From positions 86,988,001 through 87,052,000 of the forward strand of contig CM059432.1 of NCBI GenBank assembly GCA_030390025.1: a stretch of 64,000 nt of DNA, given 5' to 3'. The translations under genes were made by a program, and so were the position numbers. Source of the stretch: Squalus acanthias. Its lineage: Eukaryota. Positions within the stretch are counted from its first letter, which is position 1, and every line of letters starts with the position of its first letter. Below the pieces are notes generated by a model. That model ran no database searches, had not been told where the DNA came from, and saw only the letters and a program-made list of their open reading frames with translations. This document shows, piece by piece, positions 1,081 through 57,684 of this stretch.

Positions 1081-4000
1081 CTTTCTATCTACCCTATCTA
1101 TGCCCCTCATAATTTTGTACACCTCAATCAGGTCCCCCCTCAGTCTTCTCTGCTCTAAGGAAAACAACCCCAGCCTGTCCAGTCTCTCTTCATGGCTGAA
1201 GCGCTCCAGCCCAGGTAACATCCTGGTGAATCTCCTCTGCACCCTCTCCAATGCAATCACATCCTTCCTATAGTGTGGCGACCAGAACTGCACACAGTAT
1301 TCCAGCTGTGGCCTAACTAGCGTTTTGTACAGCTCCATCATAACCTCCCTGCTCTTATAGTCTATGCCTCGGCTAATGAAGGCAAGTATCCCATATGCCT
1401 TTTTAACCACCTTATCTACCTGTCCTGCTGCCTTCAGGGATCTATGAACATGCACACCAAGGTCCCTCTGATCCTCTGTCCTTCCTAGGATCCTAGCATT
1501 CATTGTGTATTCCCTTGCCTTGTTAGTCCTCCCAAAATGCATCACCTCACACTTTTCAGGGTTAAATTCCATTTGCCACTGTTCTGCCCATCTAACCATC
1601 CCGTCTATATCGTCCTGTAGCCTGAGGCTTCCCTCCTCGCTATTTACCACTCCACCAATTTTCGTGTCATCTTCGAACTTACTGATCATACATCCTACAT
1701 TCATATCTAAATCATTAATGTACACTACAAACAGCAAAGGACCCAGCACCGATCCCTGCGGTACACCACTGGACACAAGCTTCCAGTCACAAAAACAACC
1801 TTCGACCATCACCCTCTGCCTCCAGCCACTAAGCCAATTTTGGATCCAATGTGCCAAATTGCCCTGGATCCCATGGGCTCTTACCTTCTTGACCAGTCTC
1901 CCATGTGGGACTTTGTCAAAAGCCTTACTGAAGTCCATGTAGACTACATCAACTGCACTACCCTCATCCACACACCTAGTCACCCCCTCAAAAAATTCAA
2001 TCAAATTGGTTAGACATGATCTCCCCCTGACAAAGCTATGCTGACTATCCCTGATTAATCCCTGCCTCTCCAAGTAGAGACTAATTCTGTCCCTCAGAAT
2101 TTTTTCCAATAATTTCCCTACCACTGATGTTAAGCTCACTGGCCTGTAATTCCCTGGTTTATCCCTACTACCCTTCTTGAACAATGGTACTACGTTAGCT
2201 GTTCTTCAGTCCTCTGGCACCTTCCCTGTGGCCAGAGAGGTTCTGAAAATTTGTGCCAGAGCCCCTGCAATCTCCTCCCTTGCGTCACACAACAGCCTGG
2301 GATACATCCCGTCAGGGCCTGGGGATTTATCCACTTTTAAGCCCGCTAAAGCTGCTAGTACCTCCTCCCTCTCAATACTAATTTGTTCAAGTATATCACA
2401 GTCCCCCTGCCTGATTTCTATGCCTACATCACCCTTCTCCATAGTGAACACAGATACAAAGTATTCATTTAAAACCTCACCTACATCTTCCGGCTCTACA
2501 CACAGATTGCCACTTTGGTCCCTAATGGGCCCTACTCTTTCCCTGGTTATCCTCTTGCCCTTAATATACTTATAAAACACCGTGGGATTTTCCTTTATTT
2601 TGCCCGCCAGTGTTTTTTCATGCCCCCTCTTCGCTCTCCTAATTTCTTTTTTAAGTACCCCCCTGCACTTTCTATACTCCTCTAGGGCTTCCACTATTTT
2701 TAGTCCTTTGTATCTGCAAAAAAAGCCTCCCTTTTTTTCCTAATCCATTCTTGTATATCCCTTGACATCCAGGGTTCCCTGGGCTTGTTGGTCCCACCCT
2801 TGACCTTTATGGGAACATGTTGACGTTGTACTCTATTTCCTTTCTGAAAGACTCCCATTGCGCTGATGTGGATTTTCATATAAGTAGCTGATCCCAGTCT
2901 ATTTTGGCCAGATCCTGCCTTATCATATTAAAATCAGCCTTCCCCCAATTTAGAACCTTTGGGCTGGATTTTCATTGACCCTTGGAGGCGTGTGGGGGGT
3001 TAAAATTGCGAAAACTGGCGGGCGGGCACAAGTCCGCCTCCATCCCGCCTCCATGCAATTTTCATTAAATCGTGTCTGCTGGTCCCAACTCCGTCCCGCC
3101 TTTAAGAGATGGGATAGGCTGTTAAGGCCCTTAACAAGCACTAAATTGGCTCTATAATGCCATTTTGAAAGGCCTTTGTGATTTTAACCCTTGATCTACA
3201 TGAAGCACGTCTGTTCTGAAACACGATTGTGAAACCTGGCGGGAGCACATTTGGATAGCTGACTATCAGCTACAGGTCCACTATTGCAACGGAGATGTGA
3301 TGAAGGTAGTAGTAGTATTAGGTCTGAAAATCGCCTCTGATGCTGCTGCATTGAAGGTCTTCACAGACTGCCTGGCCTTTGCTCTGAGAGGATCTGGATG
3401 CAAAAAAAATTTTCTCTCTCTCTCTCTCTCCCCCTTAGAGCTGCTGCTCATTTTGCATCCAGGTCCTCTCACAGCAAAAGCCAGGCAGTCTCTGATCTGC
3501 AATGCAGCAACAATGATGATATCATCAGAGGTGACTTTCATACTGAAACCACTAATTGGTTCATGGGTTCCCACATGCTGGAACTCAATTGCCCAATTAA
3601 GTGACAATTGCATCAATCTCCCACATCCAAATGCAGTCGGGTGGATAACACGAAATGCGGATGACACGACCCCAACCCGCCCCAGTATCAAAATCTAGCC
3701 CTTTATTTCCGGTTCATCTTTGTTCTTTTCCATAACTACCTTAAATCTCACCGAATTATGGTCACTGTCACCAAAATGCTCTCCTACTGACACATCTACC
3801 ACTTGCCTGGCTACATTCCCTAGAATTAGGTCCAGTACCGCCCCCTCTCTTGTAGGACTTTCTACATGCTGGCTCAAAAAGCTCTCCTGGATGCACTTTA
3901 AGAATTCTGCACCCTCTAAGCCTTTCACACTCTGACTATCCCAGTTAATATTGGCGAAGTTGATATCCCCTACTATTATTACCCTATTATTTCTACACTT

Positions 4001-5490
4001 CTCTGAGATTTGCCTACATATCTGTTCCTCTATCTCCCCCTGACTGTTTGGGGGCCTATAGTACACTCCCAGCAAAGTGCTTGCCCCCTTTTTGTTTTTA
4101 AGTTCTACCCATATGGCCTCATTAGAGGAACCTGCTAAGCTATCATCCCTCCTTACTGCAGTAATTGACTCCTTGATTAATATTGCGACACCCCCTCCTC
4201 TTTTACACCCCCCTCTGTCTCGCCTGAAGATTCTATACCCCGGAATATTGAGCTGCCAGTCCTGCCCCTCCCTCAACCATGTCTCTGTGATAGCAACAAT
4301 ATCATACTCCCATGTGTTCATCAACACCTTCAATTCATCTGCCTTACTCGCAAGACTCCTTGCATTAAAATAAATGCCATCCAGCCTTGCCATACTCCCT
4401 TGTGCCATTACATATTTGCTCTGCCTTCCAGGCTGACTTGTTTCTTCCTCTATATTTGGCTGTGCATCAACCCCTACTATAGTTCCACTCCGTATCCCAT
4501 CCCCCTGCCAAGTTATTTCAAACCCCCCCCAACAGTGCTAGCAAACCTCCCCGCAAGGATGTTGGTCCCGTTCCGGTTCAGGTGCAACCTGTCCGACTTG
4601 TACAGGTCCTACCTTCCCCAGAAGCAGACCCAGTGATCCAGGAAACTAAAGCCCTTCCTCCTGCACCAACTCTTTAGCCACGCATTCATCTGCTCTATCC
4701 TCTTATTCCTATACTCATTAGCACGTGGCACCGGGAGTAATCCAGAGATTACAACCTTTGAGGTCCTGCTTTTTAATCTGCTACCTTGCTCCCTAAATTC
4801 TTGATGCAGGACCTCATCCCTCTTTCTACCCATGTTGTTGGTACCAATGTGAACCATGACCTCTAACTATTCGCCCTCCCCCTTCAGAATGCCCTGCAGC
4901 CATTCAGTGACATCTTTGACCCTGGCACCAGGGAGGCAACATACCATCCTGGAGTCACGTCTGCGGCCACAGAAACGCCTATCTGTTCCCCTTACGATAG
5001 AATCCCCTATCACTATTGCTCTCCCACTCTTTTTCCTCCCCTCCTGTGCAGCTGAGCCACTCGTAGTGCCACGGACTTGGCTCTTGCTGCATTTCCCTGA
5101 GAAACCATCTTCCCCATCAGTATCCAAAACGGAAAATCTGTTGGAGAGGGAGATGGACCCAGGGGACTCCTGCACTACGTTCCTAGTTCTTTTACTCTGT
5201 CTGGCGGTCACCCATTCCCTGTCTGCCTGTGCACTCTTTACCTGCGGTGTGACCACCTTGTTAAACGTGCTATCCACGAAGATCTCAGCTTAGCGGATGC
5301 TCCACAGTGACTCCAGCCGCAGCTCCAGCTCCGAAACGCGGATTTCGAGTAGCTGCAGCTGGAGACACTTCCTGCACATGTGTTCGCCCTGGACACCGAA
5401 AGTATCCCTGACTTCCCACATAGCACAGGAGGAGCACTCCATGCAGCCGAGCTGCCCTGCCACGTCCTACCCTTAATTTAAATTGCATGT
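1074..5490 (-). mobile_element. Near full-length CR1 LINE (ORF1 zinc finger + SGNH esterase; ORF2 APE endonuclease + RT), degenerate, interrupted by a MITE
   Basis: ORF1 esterase motif IVIGDSIVRG (4867-5277); endonuclease AITETWL, GGGVA, YRPP, SDH (3695-4408); RT NYRPVSLTS, QGSVLGP (1030-2694). Confidence 0.95.
2961..3701. mobile_element. Non-autonomous PIF/Harbinger element (MITE), 741 bp
   Basis: TIRs GGGCTGGATTTT / AAAATCTAGCCC; 3-bp TSD TTT. Removing it restores CR1 ORF2 (EPEIKVLNWGKADF). Confidence 0.92.
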
Positions 5491-6019
5491 GGAGGTCCGC
5501 ACTGGGAGTGCAAATTCATAAAATTACTCAGTAATGTGTTGAAAGAATCTGTGTATTTCTTTTGATAGCACCAGCATTCTTCTCTCTCAATGCTTTATCA
5601 CTTTTTTATTAGCTTCTCTCGGATGTCTTTACTTATTTTATTACTGTTGCTCCCTGATCTTTAAATGTATTAAAGCTTCAACAAAATGATTTGGCCACAA
5701 ATCTATTAGGTGTGATTAAATACTGCAATGCTTTCTGCTCAAATGATGAAGAAACCCATCTTGGCTAACTTCACATGGGTTTTCTTTCAGTTTGCAGTTT
5801 ACCTAAATTCTGTCAGCTGTTCTGCCTCCTCAAGTTATTATCTTTACTGGCAAATCAGTGTCAGGTCTGCTCCTCACAGTGGAAGTATTACTAGTGCTCT
5901 GTGTGAAAGAACTGTAAACAAGAGTCAGATGATACTGCTTACCCAAAGATACATTACGGGTATGTTTACTTGCAGAATACATGCACAGCTTACACATTGT
6001 TTAATTTAAAAAATAATCC

Positions 6020-10436: not shown

Positions 10437-13400
10437 GGGCTGGATTTTGTCAGTGTGGGCGGGCTGGGGCGTGTCAGGTGGAAATCGTGTCAGGACCCCG
10501 ACTCCTAAGTGATGTGTTAAAAAAGTGGGATTTTCCCCTAATTGGGCAATTGATTTCCTGCGTGTGGGAACCCCTGGCCCAATGAGTCTTTTCATACAGA
10601 AAGTCGCCTCCGATGACGTCATCAATACTGCTGGATTTAAGGCCTGCAAGCAGCCTTGCTTCTTCTGGAGACTGCAAAGGCTCTGCAATTTATATGAAGG
10701 AGTTGAATTGTGGAAAATGTCAACGATCAAGCAAATGTGTGCCCCTCGGTTTGATGAGCCCTCCCTCCAAGCTCTGGTGTACGGAGCCAGCTGTAATAAG
10801 GAGGTGCTGTTCCCTTCCTCAGGGAGAAAAAAGCCACCCCCAGTAGACAAAAGCTGTGTGGCTATAAGTGGCCCAGGAGGTCAACTCCATATCGATGAGC
10901 TGCAGAACCTGGCTGCAATGCAGGAAGAGGTTTCATGACCTTCTTCGCACAGGAAAAGTGAGTATGACTTTCCCATCACCCTCAATCTGATCCCCATCGC
11001 CTCTCCTCACCAGCGCTCTGCTTTGCCAACCTCTTCCTCCACATGCCACTTGATACTTACATCCCTGCACCCTTACCCATTCCCTCTCTCTCTATGGTCA
11101 CATTCACTTAACTATTCGACCATGCAGCCCTCACACTTCCTATCACTGTGATGCCATGACAACAACAACTTACAACACACAGGGAGGGTCCTTTGTATCC
11201 TTCTAAGCATCTATGCTACGCATTCACTGCACTCACTCCTTCATTCTCACTCAAACTCCACTTGTGTCCCTCATTGCAGGAAAAGAGAGCCCACAATAAG
11301 AGGGAAAGAGCCATGACAGGAGGAGGGCCACCCTCAGTAGCCCAGCTCACTCCCTGGGAGGAGGCAGCCCTGGAAATTGCTGGGATCGAGGAGGATACCC
11401 AAGTGGGGGACGGACAGATGGGCGCATCACAGCAAGCTGGTGACAGAATAGTTTGGAATCTCTCTCATTGACAGAGCATGAGTCACTGATAATGATTCTG
11501 GTGCTCTAACAGATTGACTTATGATCATCTGCAATATTCATTGTGCATGTAACCTTGGCCTCACATCTCTAACTCTTTCCTTTACTCCCCCACAGGACCA
11601 TCGAAAGCCCCCGTCCCCACTATCCGGGAGGAACAGCCTGAGCCTCCAGACTCCTCAGAGGAAGCTGCAATCTCTGAGGGCGCAGCGACAGCAGAATTCA
11701 ACGCACCAGCACCAGCGCAGACACTCACACCTCGGTGATACCTTCGCGTGATAGAGTAGTGTTGGCACCTGGTGTATTACAGCCCACAAGTGAGCATCAG
11801 CAGATGGTGGAGACAAGGACAGTAGTGGAGAGTCCTCGTCAGAGGGCGCAGGACTCTGCCAGCTCAGCTCCGCTGCATGTCGGCCCTGTGCCTCCGGGTC
11901 CATCCAGAAGGAGAGCAGTGCTGGAACTCCAGGAACAGGTGCAGGAGTCTCTGGCAGGTTTTGTCTCCAGGGTCGCTGCGAGTGTGGAGCGAATGGAGGA
12001 GTCCATCGCGAACATGAGCAGAGCCTTTGTGGAGGCATTGGCGCATCAACGCATCACCGCGGAAAGGATGGCAACCTCCGTGGTAAGGCTGGCTACGGTA
12101 GAGGAGAGAATGGCTATGTCCATGGAGGAGCATAGTCGCCAGGGTATGGAAAACATAGTCATTGTTCAGAATAGACATCTCTTGAGGAGCGATGGTCAGC
12201 TATTGAGCATAGAAACCAGACCTTCATGCAAGTCCTCTGGAGTAGGACTTCCAGTGCAGAAACGGGTCCTCATGGCCCCCCTGCAGTGCAGCAAGTTGCT
12301 GTCAAGCCACTTGCTAGCTCTGAAGTGGGGCTGACCCATGAGTGGGATGTTGGTGGCAGACAACAAGGAAGTGGGGGCTCCTCTCCAAGCGCTCACGTGA
12401 CCATGCCACAGCAAAGCCCTCAGTCAGAGCCCCACTAGAGTCCTCACCCAACTGAGATGGGAGTCTCAGCCCCTGCACAGCCGCAGGAGCAGCAGACTGT
12501 TGCCGAGCCCGCACAGGTTCGCCACCCCAGAGGACGCCCGCCAAAGGTGTCGAGACAGGAGCAGCAAGAGAGTGAGCAAGGGGCCTCCACATCTGCTGAA
12601 GCCACAGGGGAAGCACCACGTTGGAGCACGCGTAAGAGGAAGATAAAGCACAAGTAGTCACAAGGGTAGTCACTTGGGTGCTGTGTAGTTTTGTTTTTGG
12701 ACCAGCCATCATTGTGATTGTATTATAACGTGTTTTGATGGCAAACTGTTGAAGTTGTGGCCTGTGTCATTTCGCAAATGGGACTTTTACATTGAGGGCG
12801 TAGGATGCCTTGCGATTGTCAGAATGGTGGTCAGAGTGATAGGATTCCGCAGGTTCTTGTTCATTGTCGATGCTCTGGTAAGAAGGAGCGAGACTAAAGT
12901 GTTTGATTGTGCAGGCTAAGTAAATCTGGCCAGGATGAGTGCGTCCCTTGCATCCCGGGCAGCAATGTTGTCGCGTGCTGGTGCCTTCTGGCCTGTGAAT
13001 CTTCAGGTGGGTGACTAGCAGCTTGGCGCTCCTGTTGATGCTCCTGCTGTTGGTGCTGCTGTTGCTCATGGTTCTGCTGCTGCCGCGGCTGGTCTTCGTC
13101 CGAATCTGATGTCTAGGAGGAAAGGAATTAAATGGTCGCCATGCTTCTGGTATATGCCTCAGTTGAGGAAGCGCTCAGTCAAGGTGGGGAGAGGGGTTCC
13201 CCAGGAGGTCACACTGGAGATGGGTGTCAGGCTCCAAACTTCCACAGCAATGAGTAGGCATGCTAAAAGTTCCCCCAGACCTGAAACAACAAAGTTCTGC
13301 CACCTGCAAATGATCATTGGTGAAAATTCCTTTGTAATGGTGGAGCTGCAGCTGTTAGTAAGCAATCCACTTGTGAGGCCACCAGGATTACCTGGCGTGT

Positions 13401-13672
13401 TCCAGAGGAGGCGTGTAGGATGGGAGGAATGTGTAAAAATCAGAAAGGCCTCTCAAAATGGGATTATAGAGGCAATTAAGTGGTTGTTAAGGACCTTAAG
13501 GGCCTATCCCGCCTCTTGGAGGCGGGATGGAAAGGGGGTCAGAAAACACGCATTTGGGAAAATTGCTCGGAGGTGGGATGGAGGCGGGATCGGGCCCGCC
13601 CGCCATTTTTGGCGATTTTAACAACTCACATGCCTCCAAACCCATCTCCTCAGGGCTGGTAAAATCCAGCCC
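10437..13672 (+). mobile_element. Harbinger derivative carrying the Myb/SANT gene, transposase core deleted (3236 bp)
   Basis: Perfect 12-bp TIRs GGGCTGGATTTT / AAAATCCAGCCC; TSD TGA. Confidence 0.95.
10717..12657 (+). pseudogene. Harbinger Myb/SANT-like DNA-binding protein, 3 exons (10717-10957, 11280-11439, 11596-12657), frameshifted
   Basis: PRFDEPSL...EVLFP...TWLQCRKRFHDL followed by gtgagt; cag|EKRAHNKRE..TGGG; C-terminal basic RKRKIKHK*; GT-AG introns. Confidence 0.88.
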
Positions 13673-20306: not shown

Positions 20307-21510
20307 GGGCTGGATTTTACCAGCTCTGAGGAGGCGGGTTTGGAGGCGGGACTGCTGGCAAAATCAAAATGAATTGGAGCGGGTCCCGAACCCGCTCCCA
20401 ACCCGCCTCCAAACAATCTTCCCGGGAGTCGGGTCTCCGATTTGCGCAGGGACCCGACTCCTAGCGGCGGGAAGAGAATTATAGCCACTTAACTGCCTGT
20501 TAACAGGTACTTAACAGGCAGTTAAGAGGCTTTTTCCCATTTTGAGACTTCTGTTGCGGGCTTCCCGACATCGGGGAACCCTTCCAGGGTAAGTGTGGTG
20601 TGCTGTGGGTCTGTTGTAATGTTTGTGTATAGATGACAGCTGCAGACGTGGTGTGAAGGATCCACTGGGACACTGGTGAGTATCAGAGGTAAGGAAATGT
20701 TGGGAAAGTCATTTTTAATGTGTTTGGATTTTTCTGTAGGTGACAAGCTTTGAAATGTTTGTGTGGCCTCACCTCATTGGTAGAAGTGACAGATCGCTTC
20801 TGTAACCTCACCTGCAGCTGCCATCTGTTTTATCCTAAGGAGAGAGTCATTGCAGAGTCTGGGTGCAAGGGTTCACCTTTGTACAGTGATTGTCAGTGTT
20901 TGACAGCACCTCAATGCTGTTAAACGTATAAAATTCTGACAGGGTTAGACAGACTGGATGCAGGGGGGATGCTTCCCCTGGCTGGGCGGTCTAGAACAAG
21001 GGGTCACAGTTTCAGGATACGGGGTAGGATGTTTAGGACTGAGATGAGGAGAAATTTCTTCACTCAGAGGGTGGTGAACCTGTGGAATTCTCTACCACAG
21101 AAGGCTGTGGAGGCCAAGCCACTGAATATATTTAAGAAGGAGATAGATAGATTTCTAGACACAAAAGGCATCAAGAGGTATGGGGAGAGAGCGGGAATAT
21201 GGTATTGAGATAGAGGATCAGCCATGATCATATTGAATGGCGGAGCAGGCTTGAAGGGCTGAATGGCCTACACCTGCTCCTATTTTTCTATGTTTCTAAG
21301 TTTGCTGATGATACAAAGCTAGGTGGGACAGTAAGCTGTGAGGAGAACACAAAGGTCTGGATTTTACCTGCCGAGACGAGTTGGGGGTGAGACTGCTGCC
21401 TTCCAGGTTCTAGTCTTGCCCCCAGCGACGTCCGACGCACAGACGCTATTTTCCCCTGATTGGCCTTGTTAAGCCCGCCCTGCGGGCTTGCCGGCCAATT
21501 AAGGCCAATT
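20307..21510. mobile_element. Harbinger MITE (same family as 53848-54727) with its right end inverted
   Basis: TIR GGGCTGGATTTT at 20307 after TTT; second TIR GGTCTGGATTTT at 21354 after AAA, in the same orientation. Confidence 0.85.
20922..21296 (+). mobile_element. CR1 3' fragment on the plus strand
   Basis: ORF 20969-21208 SRTRGH...RRNFFTQRVVNLWNSLP followed by a CR1 3' UTR and tail. Confidence 0.9.
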
Positions 21511-30860: not shown

Positions 30861-30885
30861 CCATGTAGCTATACGATATGTAATT

Positions 30886-39498: not shown

Positions 39499-40893
39499 GA
39501 GTACAGCTGCTTCAGTCCTCCGGCTCCTTCTCCTTGACCTGCTGCTGCTTGCTGAGGCAGCTGCACAGCCAGCAATGCTAAGAATGAGGTTCTGCAGCAT
39601 CAATGAAACTCCCCTTTAAGAACTGAAAAAAGCCTGTGGCAATCATGACTTGCGATTAGACTGCACCTGAGTCCATCCAATGAGCTTGGGCTTAAAGACT
39701 TGAATTAGCGTTCCAATCATATCTTTGAGCAGTGAGCATGAATTTTGCATGCAGTCTAAAGCATTAGCGCATGGCACTAATTCTCCAACTTTTCTAATTA
39801 TACTGCCCATTCCTGGGCTATAGTGCATTTCTAGCCCTTTTATATTTTAATTATTAGTGTTCTTGTTAAAAAAAATTCTAATCTGTCCATTGTCAGTTCT
39901 GCCCTTTTTCAGCCTCTTGGCACTGTTCAACCTGAATTTCCTCTTCCCTCTCCTCCAAGCATGGCACATGCGGAGGTACCAGCTCGATCAGCTTCTGTGT
40001 CCAACCACCCCTCTGCTGTGCCCCCTGACTCCAACGCAACCCCACCTCTTTGCTCTGCCTGATCTGACCCTAACCCAGCCTCTCTGCCTTCCCAATCCTG
40101 ATCGAGCTGTTCTGCCTGACCTATTGTCGACCACATCTGGTCTCTTCCTGGCCACCTGACCTTGAAAGGTAAGTGGGGTAATGGCTGGTTTTCCTGCTAT
40201 CACTCCCTTGTGAATCTAATGCTTTTGTGAGCAAATGGTTCCAGAAGAAAGTTTTATACCAAGGTTTCATGGCAATGGTTTTGATAATGCTAAGAGACTA
40301 TTGTTTATGCTACTGTTGATGTATTTTTGACCATTTCCTCACAAATGGAATCACTTGCCAAAGGATTTCTTATCTGTTTTCCTTCTAGAGTGTTAATTAT
40401 TTTTTACTGTTACTTGAAAAATGTATTTAGGTTCAAATAATACTATTGTAAAATTATGACACAACTTCAAATTAAGCTGCAATTAAAACTTTTTTAAAAG
40501 ATTGTCTTGGATATGGATGATGCAGGCAAGGTTGTATTTATTGCCCATCCTTCGTTGCCTTGAGAAGGTGGTGGTGGGGATTCACCTTGAACTGCAGTTC
40601 TTGTGGTGATGGTGCTTCTACTATGGCGTTAGGTAGGGAATTCCAGGATTTTGACCCAGCAACAATGAAGGAATGCCGATATATATCCAAATCAAGATGA
40701 TGCATGACTTGAAGGTGATGGTGTTCCAATGACATTGCTGCTTTTGCCCTTCTCAGTGGTAGAGGTTATCGAAGTAACCTTGGCGAGTTGCTGCAGCCAT
40801 AATGCACCAGTGGTGGAGGAGGTGGATATTAAATCTGGTGGTAAGGATGCCAAACAAATGTATTGCTCTGTCCTGGATGGTGTTAAACTCCTT

Positions 40894-43149
40894 GGGGGAG
40901 AAATTCCCTACCTTAGCGCCACCCGTTAGCGTGGCATTACATCAAGAAAGCGGCGGCCGTTCTTCCGCCAGCTGGTGGCGGGTTCCACGGCGTCCTCCAT
41001 TTTTGAATCCTGGTAGCGCTGCCATTCTGAAGTAGCGCCCTTCAAAAAAAATGGCAGAGTGCTGATGTCAATTGGCGTGCAACGCCGACTTAACGTCACA
41101 ACGGTGAACTTCAACCCTAGCTCTGAGTTCAGTACTGGGTCCTAAGCATGGCAGGTAAACCCAGCATGCAAACAGACTGACAGAAGTGCTGTCAGCACCT
41201 CTTAAAGGGACAAACACATGTTTCAGGTAAGTTTGCATTTAAACTTTTGGACTGGGTTTTTTTGATTTTATTGAACTGGTGGCTTGCTGCAATAGATGTT
41301 AAAAGTTTTTTAAGTGTGTAGGAAGTGCTGCTGGAAGCTTGCAAGGCCTTGGATGGTAAAGGAAGGCCTCTGAGAAGGCAGAAAATGCTGCAAATACTCA
41401 GCAGGTCAGACAACATCCATGGAGAGAGAAACGGAGTTCACGTCTCAGGTCAAGATGCTGCCTGACCAGCTGAGTATTTCCAGCATTTTATGCTGTCATT
41501 TCAGATTTACAGCATCCACTCACAGAGGGAAGAGGAAGACGCAGAAGAGGAAGAAACAGAAGAGTTAGAAGCCAAGGAGGAGGAAGCAGAAGAGGAGAAA
41601 GCAGAAGGAAGGATGCAACCCAGACAGTGCCATTCTAGCCAGGATATCCGGGATGGAATCATCCACCTGCGGTTACAGTGACCACAACCTCAATTCCCCT
41701 TTCAACATTTGTCCCACACCTTACCTTCCCTCTGTTACTGATCAGCACAGCATCCTCTTGACCACAATGCTGAAATAATGTCACCACAAAGCAAACTTTT
41801 CAATCCAACTTTATACATCTATCCATCCAATATGACATCAAGAAATCAACTCATCACCCTTATGCATTCTCTTAGTAACTGTCTTGTGTGTGCCTTTGCC
41901 CATCCTACTGATGTCACGCAGTGCTACCCTAGTGACTGCAGCATGGCTGGTGGAAGGCTGCTGACTTTCAGTGGGGGACACGGCAAATGGCCTTGCTGGT
42001 CGACCTTGAGGAGCTGGTGGCTGGGAGTATCAAATCAATCTTCTTCTTCTTCACTCTCCTCTCCCTCTTCTTGGTCAACCACTGGCTGGGCAGCTGCATT
42101 TCTTGGGTGTGTGAAATGAGGAAAGCAAAAGGGTGGAGTTGTGGTGAGGGGAGGGTGGGAAAGCAAGAGGTGCATGCTAGAAGGAGGATAGCGTATGAGG
42201 ATACCAGCATCTTGTATCATTTCAGCCCTGCTGCTGGCCAAGGGCTCAGCCATGCCCCTGCCAAAAATGGCCTGCACCGTCTCCTCCAAGGGGGTGAGGT
42301 GAGGCTAGGATTGGGAGATGTGCCTCGTGATTGGTACAGATTGTTCGTAGGGGAGAGATTGGGGCAGGGTTTGACAGAGTCGTGCATTGAGCAGCGTGTG
42401 AGGCTAGTGATGCAGTTGGTAGGAGACGACTTTTGAAGATGCATTCACTGACCTTGACCACTGGTCTGAGGTCATGAAGATTCTTTGGGCACTGAAGCCA
42501 GGTGGTGGGGGCGACACTGCTGGCAATGATGACCTCGGTGATCTGGTCCCACATTGTTCTTTCTGGAGGGCCTCCTGGCCCCTGTGGGTAGAGGACTTCT
42601 CTTGCAGTTTTGACCCCCTGCATAAGGCTGGAGTGCTGCATGTGAGACCCTGGGTGCCCCTTCCCTGGCTTACTGAGCTATTTGTGTTAGTGCTAAAGCA
42701 CTTTTCCCATTTTTTGAGGTTCGGAAGAGAATTCAGCTTTAAGTGCTGAAGACTCCTATTTGGGACTTCTTTTTAGTGATAATTTGTTTTTTGAAATGCA
42801 GTAAGGGCTGAAAAATGCATTTTTCACTTGATTTTAATTTTTATTAGTTCTGAACGCATTGCCCCTTTAATTCATAGCCCTTTTAAATGCCCACAATTCA
42901 TTGCGAACTTCACAGCCTCACTCCCAGAGGCTGTAAGAAGCTGCAGCGCCGATTGTGGACGGGATCTTCGGGTCAGAGGCCTCCACCAGCGCCACCAGGA
43001 GGGCGTTACATTGTAAGTTAGCGCTGCTCTACAGATCTCCATCCCAAGTGCAAATTTTTGTCCGGTAGGGCTGCGGCCATTTTCAGCGGCCGTAAACCCA
43101 AAGCCGCGGTGACATCGGCAGGTTTCTGTCAATGTCCAATTTTTCCCCC
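40894..43149. mobile_element. Harbinger deletion derivative (transposase termini plus Myb remnants)
   Basis: TIRs GGGGGAGAAATT / AATTTTTCCCCC; TSD CTT. Confidence 0.92.
41378..41500. repeat. Fold-back fragment of a Penelope-like terminal repeat
   Basis: Imperfect inverted arms aaaatgctgcaaatactcagcaggtcagacaacatc / gatgctgcctgaccagctgagtatttccagcatttt; matches 52540-52600. Confidence 0.8.
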
Positions 43150-44801: not shown

Positions 44802-46630
44802 TAGTGGAGGGGCTTTGAGGGGGTAAGGGGCTGAGCCAATCTTTGCAGATTACCTATGATGTTGATATGGTTGGTCTAGTTAACCATCTGGTTAATGGTG
44901 ACCTCCAGAATGTTAATGGTGGGGTCTCAGAAATGGTAGTCCCCCACAAGGTCAAGGGGAGGTGGTAGGGCTTTCCCTTGTTTGTGGTGATCATTACCTG
45001 CCATTTGTCAGCCCAACCCTATATGATATGTAGGCCCTGCTCTAGGCTGGCATGGGCTGCTTCATTATTTGAGAAGTTGTGAATGGGGCTGAACACTATG
45101 GAATCATCAGCAAGGGAAGGTCATTAATGAAGCAGTAGAAGATGGCAGGGCCAGAGATGCTTCCCTGAGGAACTCTTGCAGAGATTAACCTCTGATAATG
45201 GGGAACGGCTAGCTCTGTTGCACAGGTCTTCACTATTTTAGCCAAGGCCCATAGTCTTTGTTGTGTCCAGTCACACAGCTGCTGATTAATGCTACCTAGA
45301 GTGAATCAAATTGGTTGGACATCGGCATCTGTGATACTGGAGACCTCAGAAGGAGGTTTAGTAGAATTTTCACTCAGCACGTTTGGTTGATGATACTTGC
45401 AAACACTTGTCTCCTGCACTCACTGCTGGGTTTCACAATGGTTGAGCAAGGATGTTCATGGAGTCTTCTCCTCCCATACCTGGTTGTCCACCACAGTTCT
45501 CGACTGGATGTGGCAGGGCTAAAGAGTTTTGCTGAGATCTGTTGTTTCAGGGACCACTCAGCTCTGTCTATAACTTTAATTCTCCGCTCCACTCCCACTC
45601 TTACTTCTCTATCCTCTGCATCCTACACTGTTCCAATGATGCTCAATGCAAGCTCAAGGAACAGCACTTCATCTTTCTATTAAGCACTTTACAGGCTTCC
45701 TGCCTTAACATTGAGTATAATAACTTTAGATCTTAACCACCCCTCCAATTTCTCGGACAGCAGGTGCTGGTAATGGAGGATGCTGCACCAGAGTCACTGG
45801 GAGTGGAGGAGGTGTGGGCTGGTGCTTGGGGTGGGAATCCTTTATTGGTACATGCCTGATGGGCTGGTTCGTCTCTCTGGGGTCTACCCACCTTTCTCCG
45901 CCACATTCCCAGGCCATGGGAGCCTTCTCCTCTTTGCCAGATTTTCCATTCTGCTGTAACCATTTACACCTCCGATAGACCCATCTTTTGTTTTTTTACT
46001 TGCCCCATTATAATCCTCTTTTGCATTGCACCATCATCCCTTTTGTCATTTAATCACTCCTGCCCTCTACCCTATCACAGACCATCCATTTTGTTCGCCC
46101 CGCCTTCCCCACTTTTCCCTGGTTCAGTACTTGCTTAAAAACTGTGAGGGGGAAAAATTTGGTTGGGTAGTGCCTCCCGTTAGTGCCTCCGGGGGGGGGG
46201 GGACTAATGGGGCGCTAGGAACTTAGCGCCGAGCGTGGCGATTTTAGCGCCGCTCGCGAAATTGACCGGTTGCTTTGCTCTGCCGCTAAACACTACTGCC
46301 ATGATCTCCTGCGCCCGCAGATCATGACGTCATTTGAGCGCGTAGTGTCCCGGACCGGAAATTGAGTCGCGCCCCCTGCCTCACCGCCTACCACTAGGAA
46401 AAACAGGTAGAGGGGAAACGTTTTCAAGTCGGGAAGGGGCTGGGGAGCGCTGTTTAAAGGCGGGCACTTCCTGCCTTTTCTTGTCAGCAACATTTTTGGT
46501 ACACGCAGGTTGAGAGGGAGAGAGACTTCTGGAGAGATTTGACGCTGTCCTAAGGAGTTTTGGGTCCTGAGCACCACTTTTGAGGTTAATATTTATTTGA
46601 CCTTCATATTTCCCATATTTAGAAGATTAA

Positions 46631-47799
46631 ATGGGGGCTGTACTAACTCGGGGTGTCGTCGCCCAGCTTCACCTTTGGAGGCAGCAGAGGCGCAGAGAGA
46701 GAGAGTGGCAAATGTGGCCAGAGGGAGGAGGGCCAACAGGCCTCTGCACAGGAGACCTTGCCCTCCCAGGGTATTCAGGGAGCAATTCTCTTATATCCAT
46801 TTGTCAGAGGAGCAGTGTTTGCGCAGGCTGTGCTTCAGCAAGGAGGTGGTCACTGAGCTCTGCCACCTCCTGCAGCCAGATCTGTAGCCTCAGCTCAGGA
46901 CCAGGACGTCTCTGTCGGTGGCAGTGAAGGTGATGGTGGCTTTGAATTTTTATGCCAGTGGCTCCTTTCAGGCTTCTACTGGGGACATCACCAATATCTC
47001 CCAGTTCGTGGTCCATTGTTGCATTCGGGAGGTGACAAATGCCCTGTATAAAAGGAGACGCCAGTACATCTCTTTCCCCATGACCCGGGACAAGCAGCGC
47101 GAACGCGCATGTGGCTTTGCTAGGATAGCGGGCTTCCCCATGGTGCAGGGCGCCATTGACTGCACGCATGTGGCATTGCGGGCACCGCATGAAAACGCAT
47201 AGGTGTTCCGAAACCGCAAGGGCTTCCACTCTTTGAATGTTCAGTTGGTCTGTGACCACAGACAGCTCATCCTCGCCGTCAATGCCCGCTATCCTGGCAG
47301 CAGCCACGATGCTTTTATCCTGCGCCAGGCTGGTGACGCAGACCTCTTCCAACCACCGCGTCAACCTAGTGGATGGCTCCTCGGGGACAAGGGTTACCCA
47401 CTCTGCACCTGGCTGATGACACCGCTCCGTAACCCCAACTCCCCTGCCGAGCTGCAATACAATGAGAGCCATAGCGCCACCAGGAACCTCATAGAGCAGA
47501 CGATCGGCATCTTGAAACAACGGTTCCGGTGTCTGGACCACTCAGGAGGAGCCCGGCAGTACTCTCCCGAGCGAGTCTCCCTTTTCATTGTTGTGTGCTG
47601 CATGCTGCATAACATTGCGATCATGAGGACCCAGCCATTGCCACCAGGGATTGGTGCACCATCTGAGGAGGAGGAGGAAGAGGGAGAGGAGTAGGAGGAG
47701 GATGAGGAGGAGGATCAGCAGCACCAACGTGGGAGGGAGGCGCACAATGTTGCCACTGCAAGGACCATCCGTGAACGGCTCATAAGACACTGCTTCTAA
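46631..47799 (+). pseudogene. Harbinger DDE transposase (HARBI1-like); one N-terminal frameshift and three in-frame TAG stops
   Basis: ORFs starting 46597, 46918 and 47203 share a frame; GAIDCTH, GSSHD, GDKGY and IEQTIG are all present. Confidence 0.95.
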
Positions 47800-48093
47800 C
47801 CTTTACAGAGAAGATGGCTTCTGGAATGAAGAAGCACATCATCAAAAGCATCCTGCACCCTCTATTGCCGGGCAAAGTTGCAATGAGTCAAATCAGCAAA
47901 GATGTAAAGTAAGAATAAAAAAAATTATTTATATTGCAAACTCTGTGTCATTTATTCAGTACAAACAATTAGAAACAAACCCAACAATTCATGAACTAAC
48001 AAAACTTGTTCTCACAACATGGATATAAATGGCAAAACAGTCAACAAATATAATAACAACAACCTCGAACTTTCCCACAAACATTCCCCCCAT

Positions 48094-49994
48094 TTATTTA
48101 CAGATTCTACTTTTTGCCCTTCGAGGGTGATCTCCCTCCCCTTCGCACTTCCCCACTTCCCACCCTACTGCTCCTCCGTAATGTGGCCCTAGTGGCTGCA
48201 GCAAAGCTGGCGGAAGGCTGCTGAATGTCGGTTCCAGAGACTGCAGATGTCTTGAAGGACGCCCTCGACCAGCTCTGGGCCTGGAGGGCCCGGCTGCAGA
48301 CTGCACCAACTCTGCATGGGCGGCAGCAGTCTGGGCTGGCTGGGTTACAGGCTGTGGCAAGTGCAATGGGGACATGGCAGTGGTGGGAGCAGAAATGCTG
48401 TCATCCTGAGAGAGGACAGCACCTTCCTGCTCAACCGACACACTGCCACTCCCTCGTGGCAGTACCTCAGCATCTGGAGCAATCTGCTCGAGCACAGATT
48501 GCTTGCCTGCTGCGGTACTGTGAGATCCCCGGGGGACTGTGGGCAACCCAGCGATGATGGCAGCAGTCAGTGCTTGCATGACATCAATCTGGGACTGCAT
48601 GAGAGCAGTCTGAGATTGGATGGCACCAGCCAATGACTCAATTGCAGCACTAAGCCGTTGCGTCTCGTCAGCCTGTGCTGCAATAGATCCTGCCACCTCA
48701 CCCATTACATGCAGCATGGGCCGTGGTTCACAACGGTCTCCCTGCAATTCAACCATCCTCTGCAATGAGGCAAGGATGGGTTCAAGGGTTTGCGCACAGA
48801 TGACAACTGTGCTGGCGGCGGACTCCTCCACGCTCCTAGCCAGTCCATCCATGCTGTCGGGCACCCTTGATATTGCACCCATGAGCTCCGTATGCATGCT
48901 CTAGGCCTGGGTATTCATGGCCGCGATGCCGAGGTCCTCATCCGAGTCCTGTGCAGCAGGACTCACTTGCCTACTCACCCTCCGGGGAGATGGCCCCCGA
49001 GCTTCCCTACCCCCATGGCGTTGCTGCAGCCCGCTGGATCCAGGAGCTTCACCCACATCAGACCCTAACCCCCCACTCCCCTCCAGGGAAGTCGTGGCCC
49101 CAGTGTTTGATGTGTCACCCTCGGGACACGCAGGCGGTGAGGTGCGGGCTTCGTCTTCCTCCTTGTCTGGCGCGTCGCTGCCGCTGGCAGGTTGAGGGAC
49201 AGGCTGGTCAGCTGGTGGTTCACTATCTGAAAGCAGGAAGGTACAAGAGTGGCTTTAGCATGAGGGCAGGGGGGCAAGAAGGGAGCAAGGACTGGAGACA
49301 GTTAGTTGGATTGAAAGTGTAAAAAGCTGGTGTTGTGAGGGGCAAGTGGTATGAGAGAGGAGAGAAAGCTGATGAACATACCATTGCTGTCCACAAGGGG
49401 GTCGACCTCTCCAGTGGCCATGTTACCGATGACCTGGCTGGCAACGATCCTGTGGACTCTGTCCTCCAACTCAGTCAGTGGGTGTAGGTCCGCCGGTCCT
49501 CCTCCCGTGCGTTGCTGCTCCCGTCTGTTATGAGGGAGCTTGGCCTGCAAGAAAAAGGACAGCATCTGAGTGAGTGTGCAGCCATGTGTTTGGCTGATAT
49601 GCCTCTCAAAGTTGAATAGCCACGAATGTGTGCAAGGTGTGGAATGTGCAGGTGTGTTTTATGAGATGGCCATAGGTCTTGGATGAGTGTTGGGCATTTG
49701 GGTTTTTAAACCGTCTGGGCACAGAGTGAAGTTGAGATGGAGGGATGTAAAGGTATTGAAAAGCAGGTACTCAGCCTGACCACCCGAGTGAGGTCGTTGA
49801 ACTTCTTCCGACATTGGGTGTGGGTCCTTGGCACCAGGCTCCTGGAGGAGACGTGCTGAGCCACCTCCCTCCACACCATTCTAAACTCCCGGAGCAATGG
49901 CCTCCTGCCACTCTTTGGGAACAGCACTGCCCGTCACAGAGCCACCAATGCCTTGTCGCTGAATTGCCTAGCTCTTTCTCTGGGCCTCTCCATT
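48094..49994 (-). pseudogene. Harbinger Myb/SANT gene, 3 exons; intron 1 donor mutated (ctgagt)
   Basis: WREVAQHVSSRS...THTQCRKKFNDL; AKLPHNRREQQRTGGG; long Ala/Gln-rich helical exon 3 (ORF 48094-48897). Confidence 0.87.
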
Positions 49995-50344
49995 ACTGCT
50001 TCTAAGAGAAACTTTAAAGACAGGTCTGTCGAGGTCTAGATTCAAGGCTGCCCAGCAAGATGGCCCCTCCCCTTTAAGAACTGGACGGCGCCAGTCTGTC
50101 TGTCTTCCATGGTAACTGACATTGCTTGAGCGTTCTGAGGTAGTGCCTTGCTCACCGACGCTTACGCCTTAAGAGAGGTGTGTAGCACCTGATTTAGCGC
50201 TCAAATCACCTCCAGGGGCGATAGAGGCCAATTTTGCGTCGGTGTCGATAATTAGTGCCGGGCACTAAACTTTGCACCCGGCCGATATTAGCGCCCCAAA
50301 ATGGGCGATACCCAATTTTTCCCCCTTAATCTCCAACATCTTCC

Positions 50345-50377: not shown

Positions 50378-52534
50378 GGCCGGAATTTTCCCATTGGAGA
50401 GTGTGGGGGCGATTTTCTGATGTCGGAGGAGGCGGGTTTGGAGGCGGGAAAGGCGGGAAAATCAGAATCGAAGAGATCAGGTTCAGAACCCGCCTCCAAC
50501 CCGCCTCCGCGGGATTTTGCTGGTGCCGGTTTTGGAGGTCGGGAAACACTCACGCCTCCAGCTGGCAATTGCGCTATTAAAGATCCTTAAATGCTCGTTA
50601 AGGGCCTCTCTAAGCCTATTCTGAGAGGCCCTCGTGATTTTTCCAGCATTTCGGTGTGATCCACGCACCTCCTAAACCAGGCCAGGTAAACCTGGCGGGT
50701 TGACTCGTGGGTGGCCTCCTCACAGCTGCAGGTCTAACAAGACATCGTTTATTGCAGCAAGGATTACTTGCAGGTGCCAGACCTTCGCTTTAAAAGGTCT
50801 CTGAGCACTTTTAGAAGGCCTTCCGAAGTCGGAGGTGCTGCAGCTTGACTCCATCAACTGTGGGACTTCCTGGGAAGACCCTCTCCCCGCTTGCAATGAG
50901 CGCTTCCCCAAAGGAGGCATCTACAAGCAGCACGGGAACCATTCGTTTTCTTTCTGCATCGACCTCAGATGAGGATGAGGAGGAGGAGGAGGATCTGGAG
51001 GAGGTGGAGCAGGAGGAGGTCAGAGCGTTGGCGTATCGACCAGCTGCAGTGGCAGCACGCGAGCATATGGCTGCCCGGGATGCAAGGGATGAACTTATCA
51101 TGGCCAGATTTGCATAGGTTGCCCAAGTTGGCGCCATCCTAGGACATCATTGACAATGGACATGACTCTCTGGCCTCCTTTCACTCAGGCCACCAACCTG
51201 ACAACGCAAGTGTGGCGGTGCTCGCAATGTGGAGCTGCCTAAGGTGAAGGAATAGATGGCATAACGCCAACATTTTGGCTTCAAATCATTTTAATGCTTT
51301 CAAACAGGGATGGCATTTCATCAATACACAGAAACAATCTCCCTATCTGCACACAGATCTGGAGGTTATATTCCTTGCCAGCTGTACCCACGCTGCCTTG
51401 GTTTCTTTGGAAGGCCTCTTCCTCCGAGATGAGTGGAAGAGCATCTCCATGCTAGCTGTCACCCCCTCCAACAACATTTGCAGCGCCTCATCCGAGAGCC
51501 TCGGGTAGGCCCTTGCCTTGGAATTGGACATAGTGGTTTCTCAAAAGATGTTGGAGGTGGTGCAGGAGATGCAGAAATGCTGTGGAATGAGCCAAGGTAG
51601 CAAGAAGCCATAAAATCAGACTGGAAAAGTGCTGTCAACAGAGGCGAGTTTCAGTCCCAAAACACTAATTGAGCAAGGGCATCCCACACCTCTGAAATCA
51701 AGTGGTCAATCATGGGAAAATCGCAAATTTTTGAAACCTATCAGTGGAGGCGAGTTTCAAATCCACCCAAACTGAAACCCACCTCCATCTCACCTCCAGT
51801 GGGAAAATTGCCCCCTGTCAGTGGTGGTTAGTCAGATGGGGATATGAGTAGGTACATAGAGAGAGGGATGGGTGCACCTGCAAGGTAGGTTGGTGTGAGG
51901 AGTGATGTGCAGGAGTAGGCTTGGGAAGGCAGAGTGATGGGGTTGGGGTGACAAGCACATCAGGATGTAGTTGAATGTGACATTGCATTCACCTTTCCTG
52001 ACCTCATGAGATCATTAAATCTTTTCTGGCACTAGATCCAGGACCGCCTTATGACATCTCTGCTACTGACCTCCTCCGCGGTCTCCAGCCATGCTCTCTT
52101 GGTGTCTCTAGCTGGTCTTTTGCGCCCATTTGCAGGGAACAGGACCTCCCTGCGTGCTCTGACCCCCTGGACCAGCACTTCCAGGGAGGCATCAAGGAAT
52201 CTGGGCGCAGCCTTCTGTCTGTGTGACTGCATAACCCACACAAATCTTAGCGATATGCAGCAATTTCTACATCTCCCAAACATCTTTATCTCTCCTCCGA
52301 CAACGTTCAACTGGGATGTGTGCAAGGCTGCTTTAAATATCTGTGTTGAAAACGAGTCATCGGTGACGTCAGTGGAGCCGCTCCATTAAACTGGGCCGGG
52401 AAACCCGCATGACTTTCAATTGATGTGATTGAGTTAATCGCACAGTGCACAGCGCGCTGTTAAAAAGTTCGGGATGGCGACCCGCTACACGGCCCGCACG
52501 CACCCACCCCGACACTCAGGTAAAGATTTCGGCT
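50378..52534. mobile_element. Harbinger deletion derivative (Myb exon 1 + intron 1 on minus strand)
   Basis: Left TIR GGCCGGAATTTT, degenerate right TIR, TSD GTT/CTT; APRFLDASLEVLV...EVLFP at 52032-52230. Confidence 0.8.
50405..51815. mobile_element. Harbinger derivative nested in another Harbinger
   Basis: TIRs GGGGGCGATTTTC / GAAAATTGCCCCC; TSD TGT; fused transposase termini (~50930-51117) and a Myb exon 1 piece (51343-51531, minus). Confidence 0.92.
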
Positions 52535-53847: not shown

Positions 53848-54727
53848 GGCCATGATTTTGCAGGCGCTCAGAGGGCGGGTTTGGAGGCGGGTCAGAGGTT
53901 AAAGTGCTATTGATTGATGGCGGGTTCCGAATCCGCCGTCAACCCGCTTCCAAACAACCTTCCCAAGTGTCGGGTCCCCGATTTGCAAATGGACTCGACA
54001 CCTAACGGCGGGAAATGGATTAAAGGCAATTAACTGCCTATTAACAGGTACTTGTCAGCAGTTTTCAGGCTGTTTTTCGATTTTCCAGCTTCTGGGTCGG
54101 GTTTCACGACGTCCGGACAACACGCCAGGTAAGTGTGGCGTGTTGTGAGTCTGGTCTGATGTTTGTGGAATGATGACAGCTGCAGAAGTGGTGTTAAGGA
54201 TGCAATGTTGCACATGGTGAGTTTCAAGGGCAAAGAAAATGTTGGTTACTGCATTTTTAATGCATATACAGATTTCTTTAGCTTACAAGTTTTTAAATCC
54301 AACTGTATGTCCAGTGCCACCTCATTGGGAGAACCTCTCTCACCAGTGACAGATCGCTTCTGTCATCTCACCTGTAGCTGCCATCTATTCCAGCATATGG
54401 AGGGAGTCATTGGAGAGTCTGGGTGCAAGAGTTCACCTTTGTGCAGTGATTGTCAGTGTTTTCAACACCTCAATGCTGTCAAACACTGAAAAATCAACTG
54501 TCAAAATAAAATTGTGCATGGTCCCTTTAAGGAAACCAGCAGATGACGCATCATCAAATGACATCATCAGACCTGCTTCCTGTTAATTGGCTGGTAAGTA
54601 GGGCGGGCTTAACAAGGCCAATCAAGGGAAAATCACGTCTGTGGAGCGGAGGCAGCTGGGGGCTGGACCGGAACCCGGAAACCATCTGACCCGTACCCAT
54701 CCCGATACCGAGGAGAAAATCGCGGCC
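53848..54727. mobile_element. Harbinger MITE, 880 bp
   Basis: TIRs GGCCATGATTTT / AAAATCGCGGCC; TSD TAT. Confidence 0.9.
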
Positions 54728-54732
54728 TATTT

Positions 54733-56766: not shown

Positions 56767-57530
56767 GGCCCAGAAATTGGAGTTCGATGGTTGCCGCGGG
56801 GGTAAGGATCCCCCGCGATATCGCACTCCGCGCCTGCCTTTATGGTTTTGGCCCACACGAACTTCAGTTCCTGGGCCTCTCCCTGGTGCCGGCGCGCAGT
56901 GTGTGCGTGTCCCAGAGGCGCAGTTAGTGCGATGCGACCTCTGGGATCACGTGGGCCAGTTAGAGCCAATGGCAGCACACCATCTTTCATTCATAGTTTT
57001 GACAGGAAGAGCTGTCAAAACTATAAATACAACAAGCCCCCAAAAGAACAGCTAAACCTCAATTAAATTTAAAAAAAGCCATCACATTAATAAAATTACT
57101 ATAGTTAAATAAATTAACCACTTTAAACAAAAATTTAAATTTTTGAAAAAATTTAAATTCTTTTTAAAAGTTATAAAAATAAACTTACCTTTCTTTAAAG
57201 TCTCTAAAAAAGATAAACCTGTTGAAAAAAATTTAAAATAATACTTAATTAACTACTTACCTTGTTAAAAGGAGGTCTTACGCCTGCTTTCTTCATGTGT
57301 AAAATCTTCAACACTTACCTGCGCGTTCAAACTTGAAAAAAAAACTAAGTGTGCTGCGTGCGCACAGCCTGTAGTGGGCATGCGGTTCACTTAGGAACCG
57401 CCCCCTTCGCAATACCCGAAGTGCCGGTTTCCCGCGCATGCACAGTGCATGCAGGAAACCGGCACTTCGGGACCTAATACGCGAGAGTACACAGTGCGTA
57501 ATCTCCCGTATTAGGTCTAATTTTCGGGCC
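56767..57530. mobile_element. Harbinger-type MITE, 764 bp, AT-rich interior
   Basis: TIRs GGCCCAGAAATT / AATTTTCGGGCC; TSD AAT. Confidence 0.88.
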
Positions 57531-57684
57531 AATAGCTCCTACAATACTTTTAATTAGAGTTACTGATAAATGTTAATAAATAAAAGGCCCTATACTGGTT
57601 TAGAACATTGCAAACCGTGCTGATGACAGTGAGACAACTACTGAGTTTGTGCATGAAATCCATTAGTTGGAAAGGAAGAAAAAG

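What the first reader, a model, noticed from the sequence alone, without database searches (positions are those of the whole stretch)
2951..57540. Harbinger target code: free 3-bp TSD inside a palindromic A(-4)...T(+4) site
Seen: twelve insertions with both flanks readable have TSDs TTT, TGA, TTT, GAA, CAT, TTT, CTT, TGA/TTA, GTT/CTT, TGT, TAT and AAT, so there is no fixed TWA or CWG core. By hand count, the base 4 nt left of the TSD is A in 10/12 (purine in 12/12) and the base 4 nt right is T in 11/12, with weaker R(-5)/Y(+5) and M(-3)/K(+3) biases. Known (recalled): zebrafish Harbinger3_DR prefers AAAACAC-CWG-GTCTTTT, which has the same A(-4), C(-3) and T(+4). Inference: these Harbingers read the flanks, not the duplicated core, and both lineages share this preference.
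Basis: partly seen in the sequence, partly recalled or inferred. Interest (0 to 1): 0.72.

Follow-up and report, generated by a model that had tools for sequence, protein, structure and literature searches.

The report
Harbinger landing code with overwritten duplications
Cut-and-paste Harbinger jumping genes in this likely shark genome sit in a loose mirror-image landing motif close to the one published for a zebrafish relative, but the three duplicated letters are not free, and in the youngest family sampled about a quarter of the duplications disagree at the middle letter, likely because the element brings three letters from its previous site.

Summary
The twelve insertions, their TSDs and the hand count are real: A(-4) 10/12, T(+4) 11/12. 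Across 275 distinct host sites from six families, A(-4)/T(+4) holds in 76% of ends in five families and 63% in the sixth (background about 29%). The strongest flank signal, Y(-1)/R(+1), was missed. The flank consensus closely matches zebrafish Harbinger3_DR, and extended targets are a published PIF/Harbinger trait.

'Free core' is only partly right. Five families have a weak A/T-biased core (0.56 bits against 4.7 in the flanks). The youngest family (E12) uses A-W-T in 166/206 ends, and empty sites are AWT in 12/21.

Unexpected: 40/145 AWT/AWT pairs in E12 differ at the centre base, including 17/71 in a held-out set. The same swap occurs in 1.1% of internal triplets. Flanks are contiguous in 7/7 testable mismatched copies. 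The likely cause is carry-over of the donor's 3-nt overhang, as the mPing cleavage model implies and piggyBac shows. Gene conversion between copies is not excluded.

The scan already noted both the motif and possible carry-over on other DNA of this genome.

The parts
2961..3701 (.). E1, non-coding Harbinger MITE, TSD TTT/TTT
   Evidence: 40 scored copies at 92-94% identity, 6594 candidates
10437..13672 (.). E2, Harbinger element, TSD TGA/TGA
   Evidence: 81% like a copy at 61620-64000 whose frame matches Myb_DNA-bind_5
20307..21366 (.). E3 ends (TIRs start at 20307 and 21354, both facing right after an inversion) inserted in a CR1; TSD TTT/TTT
   Evidence: the same CR1 site is hit by five other insertions
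25715..32372 (.). E4, Harbinger with DDE_Tnp_4 remnant (26839-27618) and an inserted CR1; TSD GAA/GAA
33404..34958 (.). E5, internally deleted Harbinger, TSD CAT/CAT
36168..39837 (.). E6, Harbinger with transposase and Myb (38988-39599, minus strand) remnants; TSD TTT/TTT; the one site lacking T(+4)
40894..43149 (.). E7, Harbinger derivative, TSD CTT/CTT
46148..50325 (+). E8, full-size Harbinger with broken transposase frames (46888-47694); flanking triplets TGA/TTA
   Evidence: (DDE_Tnp_4 E 1.5e-31)
50378..52534 (.). E9, Harbinger-type element, flanking triplets GTT/CTT
50405..51815 (.). E10, MITE nested 27 bases inside the left end of E9, TSD TGT/TGT
53848..54727 (.). E11, MITE, TSD TAT/TAT
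56767..57530 (.). E12, youngest MITE family sampled (97-98% identity), TSD AAT/AAT here; family core A-W-T, source of the mismatch data

Best explanation
These Harbinger transposons sit in a loose 15-bp palindrome (about R-R-A-S-W-Y, three duplicated bases, R-W-S-T-Y-Y) whose flanks are shared by all six families sampled while the core is family-specific, and the excess of unequal duplications likely arises because the excised element keeps a 3-nt overhang from its old site that is sometimes ligated into the new one. Shown here: the motif, the family-specific core, the excess of centre-base mismatches, and that mismatched flanks are contiguous host DNA with one side usually equal to the host triplet. 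Taken from papers on relatives: staggered cleavage inside the TSD (mPing), donor TTA/TAA arriving with mPing at Cas9 cuts, and asymmetric TSDs by mismatch resolution (piggyBac). Inferred: a two-fold symmetric transposase complex reads the target at about 1, 2 and 4-6 bases either side; an overhang that mispairs only at its centre is joined and later resolved to either strand by repair or replication, whereas worse mispairs are mostly trimmed and filled from the target.
For: Motif: A(-4) in 129/206 (E12), 54/60 (E1), 40/52 (E11), 37/52 (E10), 25/32 (E7) ends and 42/58 (E8); unchanged after collapsing 304 insertions to 275 host sites. Core differs by family: AWT in 166/206 E12 ends against 2-12 of 32-60 in the others, P 8e-51. 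Mismatch: 45/103 E12 copies have unequal triplets against 12.4 expected from divergence, P 1e-15; 33 of 37 centre differences are A/T swaps. Held-out copies: 17/71 AWT/AWT pairs differ. Control: internal AAT/ATT triplets swap in 64/5896 cells, 2/1538 in short A/T runs. Flanks contiguous in host repeats for 7/7 mismatched and 17/17 matched E12 copies. Where the host triplet was called, 9 of 12 mismatched copies keep it on exactly one side and 4 of 6 in the held-out set. Differences at two or more bases exceed chance in E1 (5 vs 0.15), E10 (3 vs 0.28), E11 (3 vs 0.59) and E12 (13 vs 0.63). Papers: PMC4561436, PMC11254759, PMC8717057.
Against: No donor-daughter pair was caught: centre bases are no more alike among nearest relatives than by chance (0.514 vs 0.499, P 0.24; nearest neighbours are 2% apart, so power is low). 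My written prediction of one third was met only loosely in the held-out set (17/72, P 0.08 against 1/3). An apparent AAT-left/ATT-right polarity (17 vs 6) did not replicate (8 vs 9; genome-wide 284:254 and 1373:1253). E12 copies look mosaic inside (all four variant combinations in 40-70% of pairs more than 30 bases apart), so exchange between copies may occur. Mismatch is rarer where the surrounding A/T run is short (3/30 vs 37/115), which the model does not predict. In E11, E7 and E8 total mismatch does not exceed decay (7 vs 6.0, 7 vs 6.5, 12 vs 8.9). No autonomous partner of E12 was found.
Confidence: 0.68

Rival explanations
1. Same landing motif, but unequal triplets come from gene conversion between non-allelic copies whose tracts run over the TIR into the near-identical A-W-T triplet.
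For: Internal mosaicism among E12 copies; conversion would also give family-preferred foreign triplets with contiguous flanks; mismatch is commoner where flanks are A/T-rich and so more alike between copies (3/30 vs 37/115).
Against: It needs end-spanning conversion in about half of copies that are about 1% from their ancestors; mismatched copies are no more diverged than matched ones (0.018 vs 0.018); some changes lie at the base farthest from the TIR (L011, L043, L167).
Confidence: 0.17
2. The gaps at the new junctions are filled by an error-prone or slipping polymerase, and no donor bases are kept.
For: Five internal sites in long A/T runs swap in 5-14% of copies; dependence on A/T-run length.
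Against: Internal triplets in runs of six or fewer swap in 0.13% of cells, while TSDs in runs of 5-6 differ in 22/65 pairs; centre changes to C or G are rare (4 of 37); two- and three-base replacements are in excess.
Confidence: 0.09
3. Ordinary point mutation after insertion, or chimeric loci made by recombination, explains the unequal triplets.
For: Enough for the totals in E7, E8 and E11; 3 of 15 testable mismatched copies in the older families have non-contiguous flanks, against 3 of 26 matched.
Against: E12: 45 vs 12 expected, held-out 17/72 vs at most 2% (P 6e-14), 7/7 contiguous.
Confidence: 0.04
4. One reading: the core is not read at all and only the flanks decide.
For: Core information is low in five families (0.56 bits); four E12 copies have AWT on both sides where the host repeat has another triplet, so carry-over could inflate the apparent core.
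Against: Empty sites of E12 are AWT in 12/21 where about 5% is expected; host triplets of the other families are W-N-W in 17/20. The four double changes can also be host copies that mutated before insertion.
Confidence: 0.05

Closest known systems
Harbinger3_DR of zebrafish (= NuwaI-2_DRer, PMC4482050 supplement 1; target printed in PMC3016246)
   Same: DDE_Tnp_4 plus Myb_DNA-bind_5 genes, about 4.2 kb, 12-bp TIR starting GG, 3-bp TSD, 15-bp palindromic target; majority left flank of E1, E10 and E11 matches 5 of 6 letters; by eye 50 of 92 residues identical over the printed DDE blocks, with the same 23-residue spacer (L299 frame).
   Different: Core is A/T-rich or A-W-T, not CWG (6/224 and 0/326 ends); specificity is loose (A-4 and T+4 together in 63/112 sites). 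No tree was made; NuwaII-4_XTro is about as close by eye (48 of 92). The primary paper (Sinzelle 2008) was not held.
mPing/Ping/Pong and maize PIF (PMC2836001, PMC4561436, PMC11254759; passages read)
   Same: Extended target preference (9 bp), two-protein system, degenerate centre base, staggered cut in the TSD, donor triplet travelling with the element to Cas9 cuts.
   Different: Core is TWA; the passages read say free insertions have intact TSDs and do not report centre-swapped natural TSDs.
piggyBac at non-TTAA sites (PMC8717057 passages, citing Li et al. 2013, which I did not read)
   Same: Donor overhang joined at an unlike target gives asymmetric TSDs after mismatch resolution.
   Different: Other superfamily, 4-nt palindromic overhang, about 2% of events; here about 28% of AWT/AWT pairs in one family.
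Pangu group of PHIS (PMC4482050, passages and supplement 2)
   Same: A-N-T TSD, which includes the A-W-T of E12.
   Different: The shark transposase blocks resemble the Nuwa rows more than the Pangu rows by eye; E12's own transposase is unknown.

Membership tests
PIF/Harbinger superfamily (broad) | DDE transposase of the DDE_Tnp_4 family | tested here: met
   (E8 E 1.5e-31, E4 E 5.5e-24); nearest proteins are shark and ray HARBI1-like transposases
PIF/Harbinger superfamily (broad) | Second gene with Myb/SANT-like domain | tested here: met
   Myb_DNA-bind_5 at 38988-39599 (E6) and 61786-62262
PIF/Harbinger superfamily (broad) | Short TIRs and 3-bp TSD confirmed by empty sites | tested here: met
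   ungapped paralogous empty sites hold one triplet
PIF/Harbinger superfamily (broad) | Target preference extending beyond the TSD | tested here: met
PIF/Harbinger superfamily (broad) | E12 MITE mobilised by a Harbinger transposase | tested here: inconclusive
   TIR 11/12 like E5 and E7-family ends and same flank motif, but no coding partner in 10 longer or open-ended loci
PIF/Harbinger group in the narrow sense (Han 2015) | TWA TSD | tested here: not met
   TWA in 26/224 and 1/326 ends
NuwaI (Harbinger3_DR group) | CWG TSD | tested here: not met
   CWG in 6/224 and 0/326 ends
NuwaI (Harbinger3_DR group) | Transposase in the Nuwa cluster | tested here: inconclusive
   by-eye comparison with printed blocks only; no tree
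NuwaII | C|TNA|G target | tested here: not met
   C(-1)/G(+1) is common (65% in five families) but the core is not T-N-A (T first 49%, A third 42%)
Pangu | ANT TSD and Pangu-clade transposase | tested here: inconclusive
   E12 core fits; its transposase is unknown
piggyBac-like overhang carry-over | Donor bases seen at a new insertion of a known donor | not testable with these tools
   needs a transposition assay; indirect support

The most novel reading that the evidence does not exclude
In shark Harbingers the 'duplication' is often not a duplication: each end keeps the donor's triplet with a probability near one half when it mispairs only at the centre, so insertions overwrite host bases, family TSD consensus sequences are partly inherited with the element, and one conserved flank code has stayed fixed from zebrafish to sharks while the core drifted between CWG, loose W-N-W and A-W-T among close relatives. 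TSD-based grouping of PHIS elements would then be unreliable, and pipelines that demand identical TSDs would drop over a quarter of the copies of such young families.
Probability: 0.5. Interest if true: 0.6.

Novelty: new variant of a known kind. Interest (0 to 1): 0.42.

Why it matters
The landing motif itself extends a published habit to a new host. What adds value: first, close relatives share the flank code but differ in the core, a natural series for mapping which residues read the target and a warning against classing PHIS elements by TSD alone. Second, the centre-base mismatches are genomic evidence for an excision intermediate so far inferred from mPing assays. Third, screens that exclude unequal triplets, as one recent Harbinger screen states it did (PMC13668399), would miss many true copies and could not see the effect; unequal TSDs would also be a poor sign of age.

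Tried and rejected
A de novo TIR-pair scan of the window was too noisy to use (449 pairs). The 30 loci of the E5 search were not used because the match did not reach both ends. AAT-left/ATT-right polarity was dropped after it failed to replicate. Inheritance of the centre base along the E12 genealogy was not detected. Chimeric flanks were rejected for E12. Pseudo-replication through host-repeat hotspots was rejected. Slippage in A/T runs is too rare in matched contexts. No autonomous partner of E12 was found. Paper searches for the recalled maize 9-bp motif, for non-identical mPing TSDs, for imperfect Harbinger TSDs and for shark Harbinger targets found no report of centre-swapped natural TSDs or of shark target motifs; the library lacks most subscription papers and Repbase, so absence from print is not shown.
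Full report
Setting. The window is repeat-dense DNA of a 3.7-Gb genome (G000:C8:86988001-87052000) made largely of LINE fragments and Harbinger elements. Frames in E4 and E8 match DDE_Tnp_4 and frames in E6 and at 61786-62262 match Myb_DNA-bind_5 (4 of 6 frames tested hit Pfam). An uninterrupted 354-aa transposase from another copy (L299) has shark and ray proteins as its nearest relatives, 68% at best, so the host is likely an elasmobranch. A protein search reported 83,836 candidates, 150 scored, many with open frames near or above 400 codons.

Check of the observation. The twelve insertions, their triplets and the counts reproduce: A(-4) 10/12, purine 12/12, T(+4) 11/12. Binomial P values against 0.263 are 6e-5 and 4e-6. 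In one search the right ends of E5 and E6 were entered one and two bases short; searches give the right ends 39837 and 34958.

Genome-wide test. Copies were taken by similarity to the element interior or by an exact terminal word, never by flank. Used: E1 30 of 30 loci, E11 26 of 30, E10 26 of 30, E7 16 of 30, E8-type 29 of 40 (the rest lacked a mappable end), and E12 103 distinct copies of 500-900 bases from 120 loci. The 30 E5 loci were not used. With both ends pooled, A(-4) was seen in 54/60, 40/52, 37/52, 25/32, 42/58 and 129/206 ends, against a local background near 0.29. Several host-repeat sites were hit repeatedly, but collapsing 304 insertions to 275 sites left A(-4) at 76% (five families) and 63% (E12). 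Position -1 is a pyrimidine in 90% and 95%, -2 is A or T in 78% and 88%, -5 a purine in 80% and 63%. The majority left flank of E1, E10 and E11 differs from the zebrafish target printed in PMC3016246 at one of six letters.

The core. In the five older families the core holds 0.56 bits against 4.72 for both flanks; it is A/T-biased (W-N-W 153/224) and neither TWA (26/224) nor CWG (6/224). In E12, the youngest family, it is A-W-T in 166/206 unselected ends, 3.1 bits against 3.6 for the flanks. Whole-genome counts give 284 AAT and 254 ATT at exact left ends and 1373 and 1253 at exact right ends of the wider family. Empty paralogous sites show the preference lies in the target: the host triplet was called for 21 of 103 E12 copies (4 more unclear) and is AWT in 12, with two further sites one CpG-type change away.

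Unequal triplets. 45 of 103 E12 copies have unequal left and right triplets where 12.4 are expected from their 2.1% distance to the family majority (P 1e-15), itself an overestimate because most variants are shared and private ones amount to about 0.5% per site. Differences fall at positions 1, 2 and 3 in 15, 37 and 9 copies; 33 of the 37 are A/T swaps. I wrote down a prediction of one third, then fetched 80 further copies chosen for an AAT (40) or ATT (40) left triplet; 74 had a right end in reach, one pair was a duplicate, and 17 of 71 AWT/AWT pairs differ: below one third (P 0.08), far above decay. Pooled, 40/145. Internal AAT/ATT triplets swap in 64/5896 cells, mostly at five sites in long A/T runs. 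Flanks are contiguous host sequence in 7/7 mismatched and 17/17 matched testable E12 copies. Among 41 insertions of all families with a called host triplet, 23 match it on both sides, 9 on one side, 6 have the same other triplet on both sides and 3 differ on both; the held-out set adds 6 both, 4 one-sided, 2 neither, 2 unclear. One CR1 site with host TTT carries TAT/TTT twice, TTT/GTA once and TTT/TTT once, besides window E3.

Results against. No inheritance signal along the genealogy. Polarity not replicated. Internal mosaicism keeps gene conversion open. Mismatch depends on A/T-run length, 3/30 against 37/115. Non-AWT right triplets were 12/86 in the first set but 2/74 in the held-out set, unexplained. 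In E11, E7 and E8 total mismatch is within decay; E1 (8 vs 3.4) and E10 (9 vs 4.2) show a mild excess.

Mechanism. Gilbert et al. propose that mPing is excised by staggered cuts within the TSDs (PMC4561436, passages); Liu et al. see the donor TTA/TAA arrive with mPing at Cas9 cuts (PMC11254759, passages); piggyBac gives asymmetric TSDs when its overhang meets an unlike site (PMC8717057, passages, citing Li 2013, not read). By inference, a shark Harbinger that carries its donor triplet as an overhang into a site with the other centre base forms a central mispair that can be ligated and fixed either way. A family with an A-W-T core meets exactly this case half the time, which fits the concentration of the effect in E12; families with looser cores would more often mispair at the edges and lose the overhang. 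That the transposase rather than the Myb protein reads the target is an inference from the Myb protein's reported binding to TIRs (PMC2836001, passages).

Known versus new. Extended target preference is described as a feature of all characterised PIF/Harbinger members, 9 bp in plants and 15 bp in vertebrates (PMC2836001). Han et al. group PHIS elements by TSD (PMC4482050; passages, section 7, a search of its three supplementary files, and file 2 read whole); these elements fail the TWA, CWG and TNA tests though their transposase resembles the Nuwa rows by eye. PMC9179366 (passages) reports Harbingers absent from the elephant shark and asks for other cartilaginous fish to be examined. PMC5738225 (passages) reports only a TAA preference in barley. 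Searches (listings) found no report of shark target motifs or centre-swapped natural Harbinger TSDs; Sinzelle 2008, Kapitonov and Jurka 2004 and Repbase were not available, and their data may bear on this. The scan's own notes record both the motif and possible carry-over elsewhere in this genome; my carry-over reading was noted before I saw them, and they are not counted as evidence.

Verdict. A real, known kind of target preference in a new host, with a family-specific rather than free core, plus good indirect evidence for donor-overhang carry-over. New variant of a known kind; interest 0.42.

Noticed in passing
window 19429-21752: E3 sits in a CR1 and its two TIRs (20307 and 21354) face the same way: a local inversion after insertion, with the CR1 halves and the TTT triplets still matching.
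   Followed up: partly
window 50378-50405 and L240: E10 is nested 27 bases inside the left end of E9; in L240 another E10 copy abuts an E9-type TIR, so Harbinger ends may be targets for other Harbingers.
   Followed up: no
L023, L032, L043, L060, L317 and window E3; L037, L077, L187, L341, L378: Single sites in host repeats are hit again and again by different families and in both orientations (17 shared sites among 304 insertions; some may be segmental duplicates).
   Followed up: partly
E12 family (L061-L210, L341-L420): Intermediate-frequency variants show all four combinations in 40-70% of pairs more than 30 bases apart, so copies look mosaic.
   Followed up: partly
G000: 83,836 transposase candidates and many open frames near or above 400 codons point to a very large, partly recent Harbinger expansion in this likely elasmobranch, although one paper reports none in the elephant shark.
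   Followed up: no
E12 family: Centre-base mismatch is rarer when the A/T run around the triplet is short (3/30) than longer (37/115); unexplained.
   Followed up: no
window 61618-64000, 55669, 55921, 59247, 43187: Further TIR-like ends without a mapped partner; 61618 starts an E2-like copy that runs off the window.
   Followed up: no
window 43447-44448: Degenerate tandem repeat of about 1 kb.
   Followed up: no
L129/L130 (G000:C1:60163731-60163916): Two E12 copies lie head to head about 140 bases apart, both with unequal triplets.
   Followed up: no
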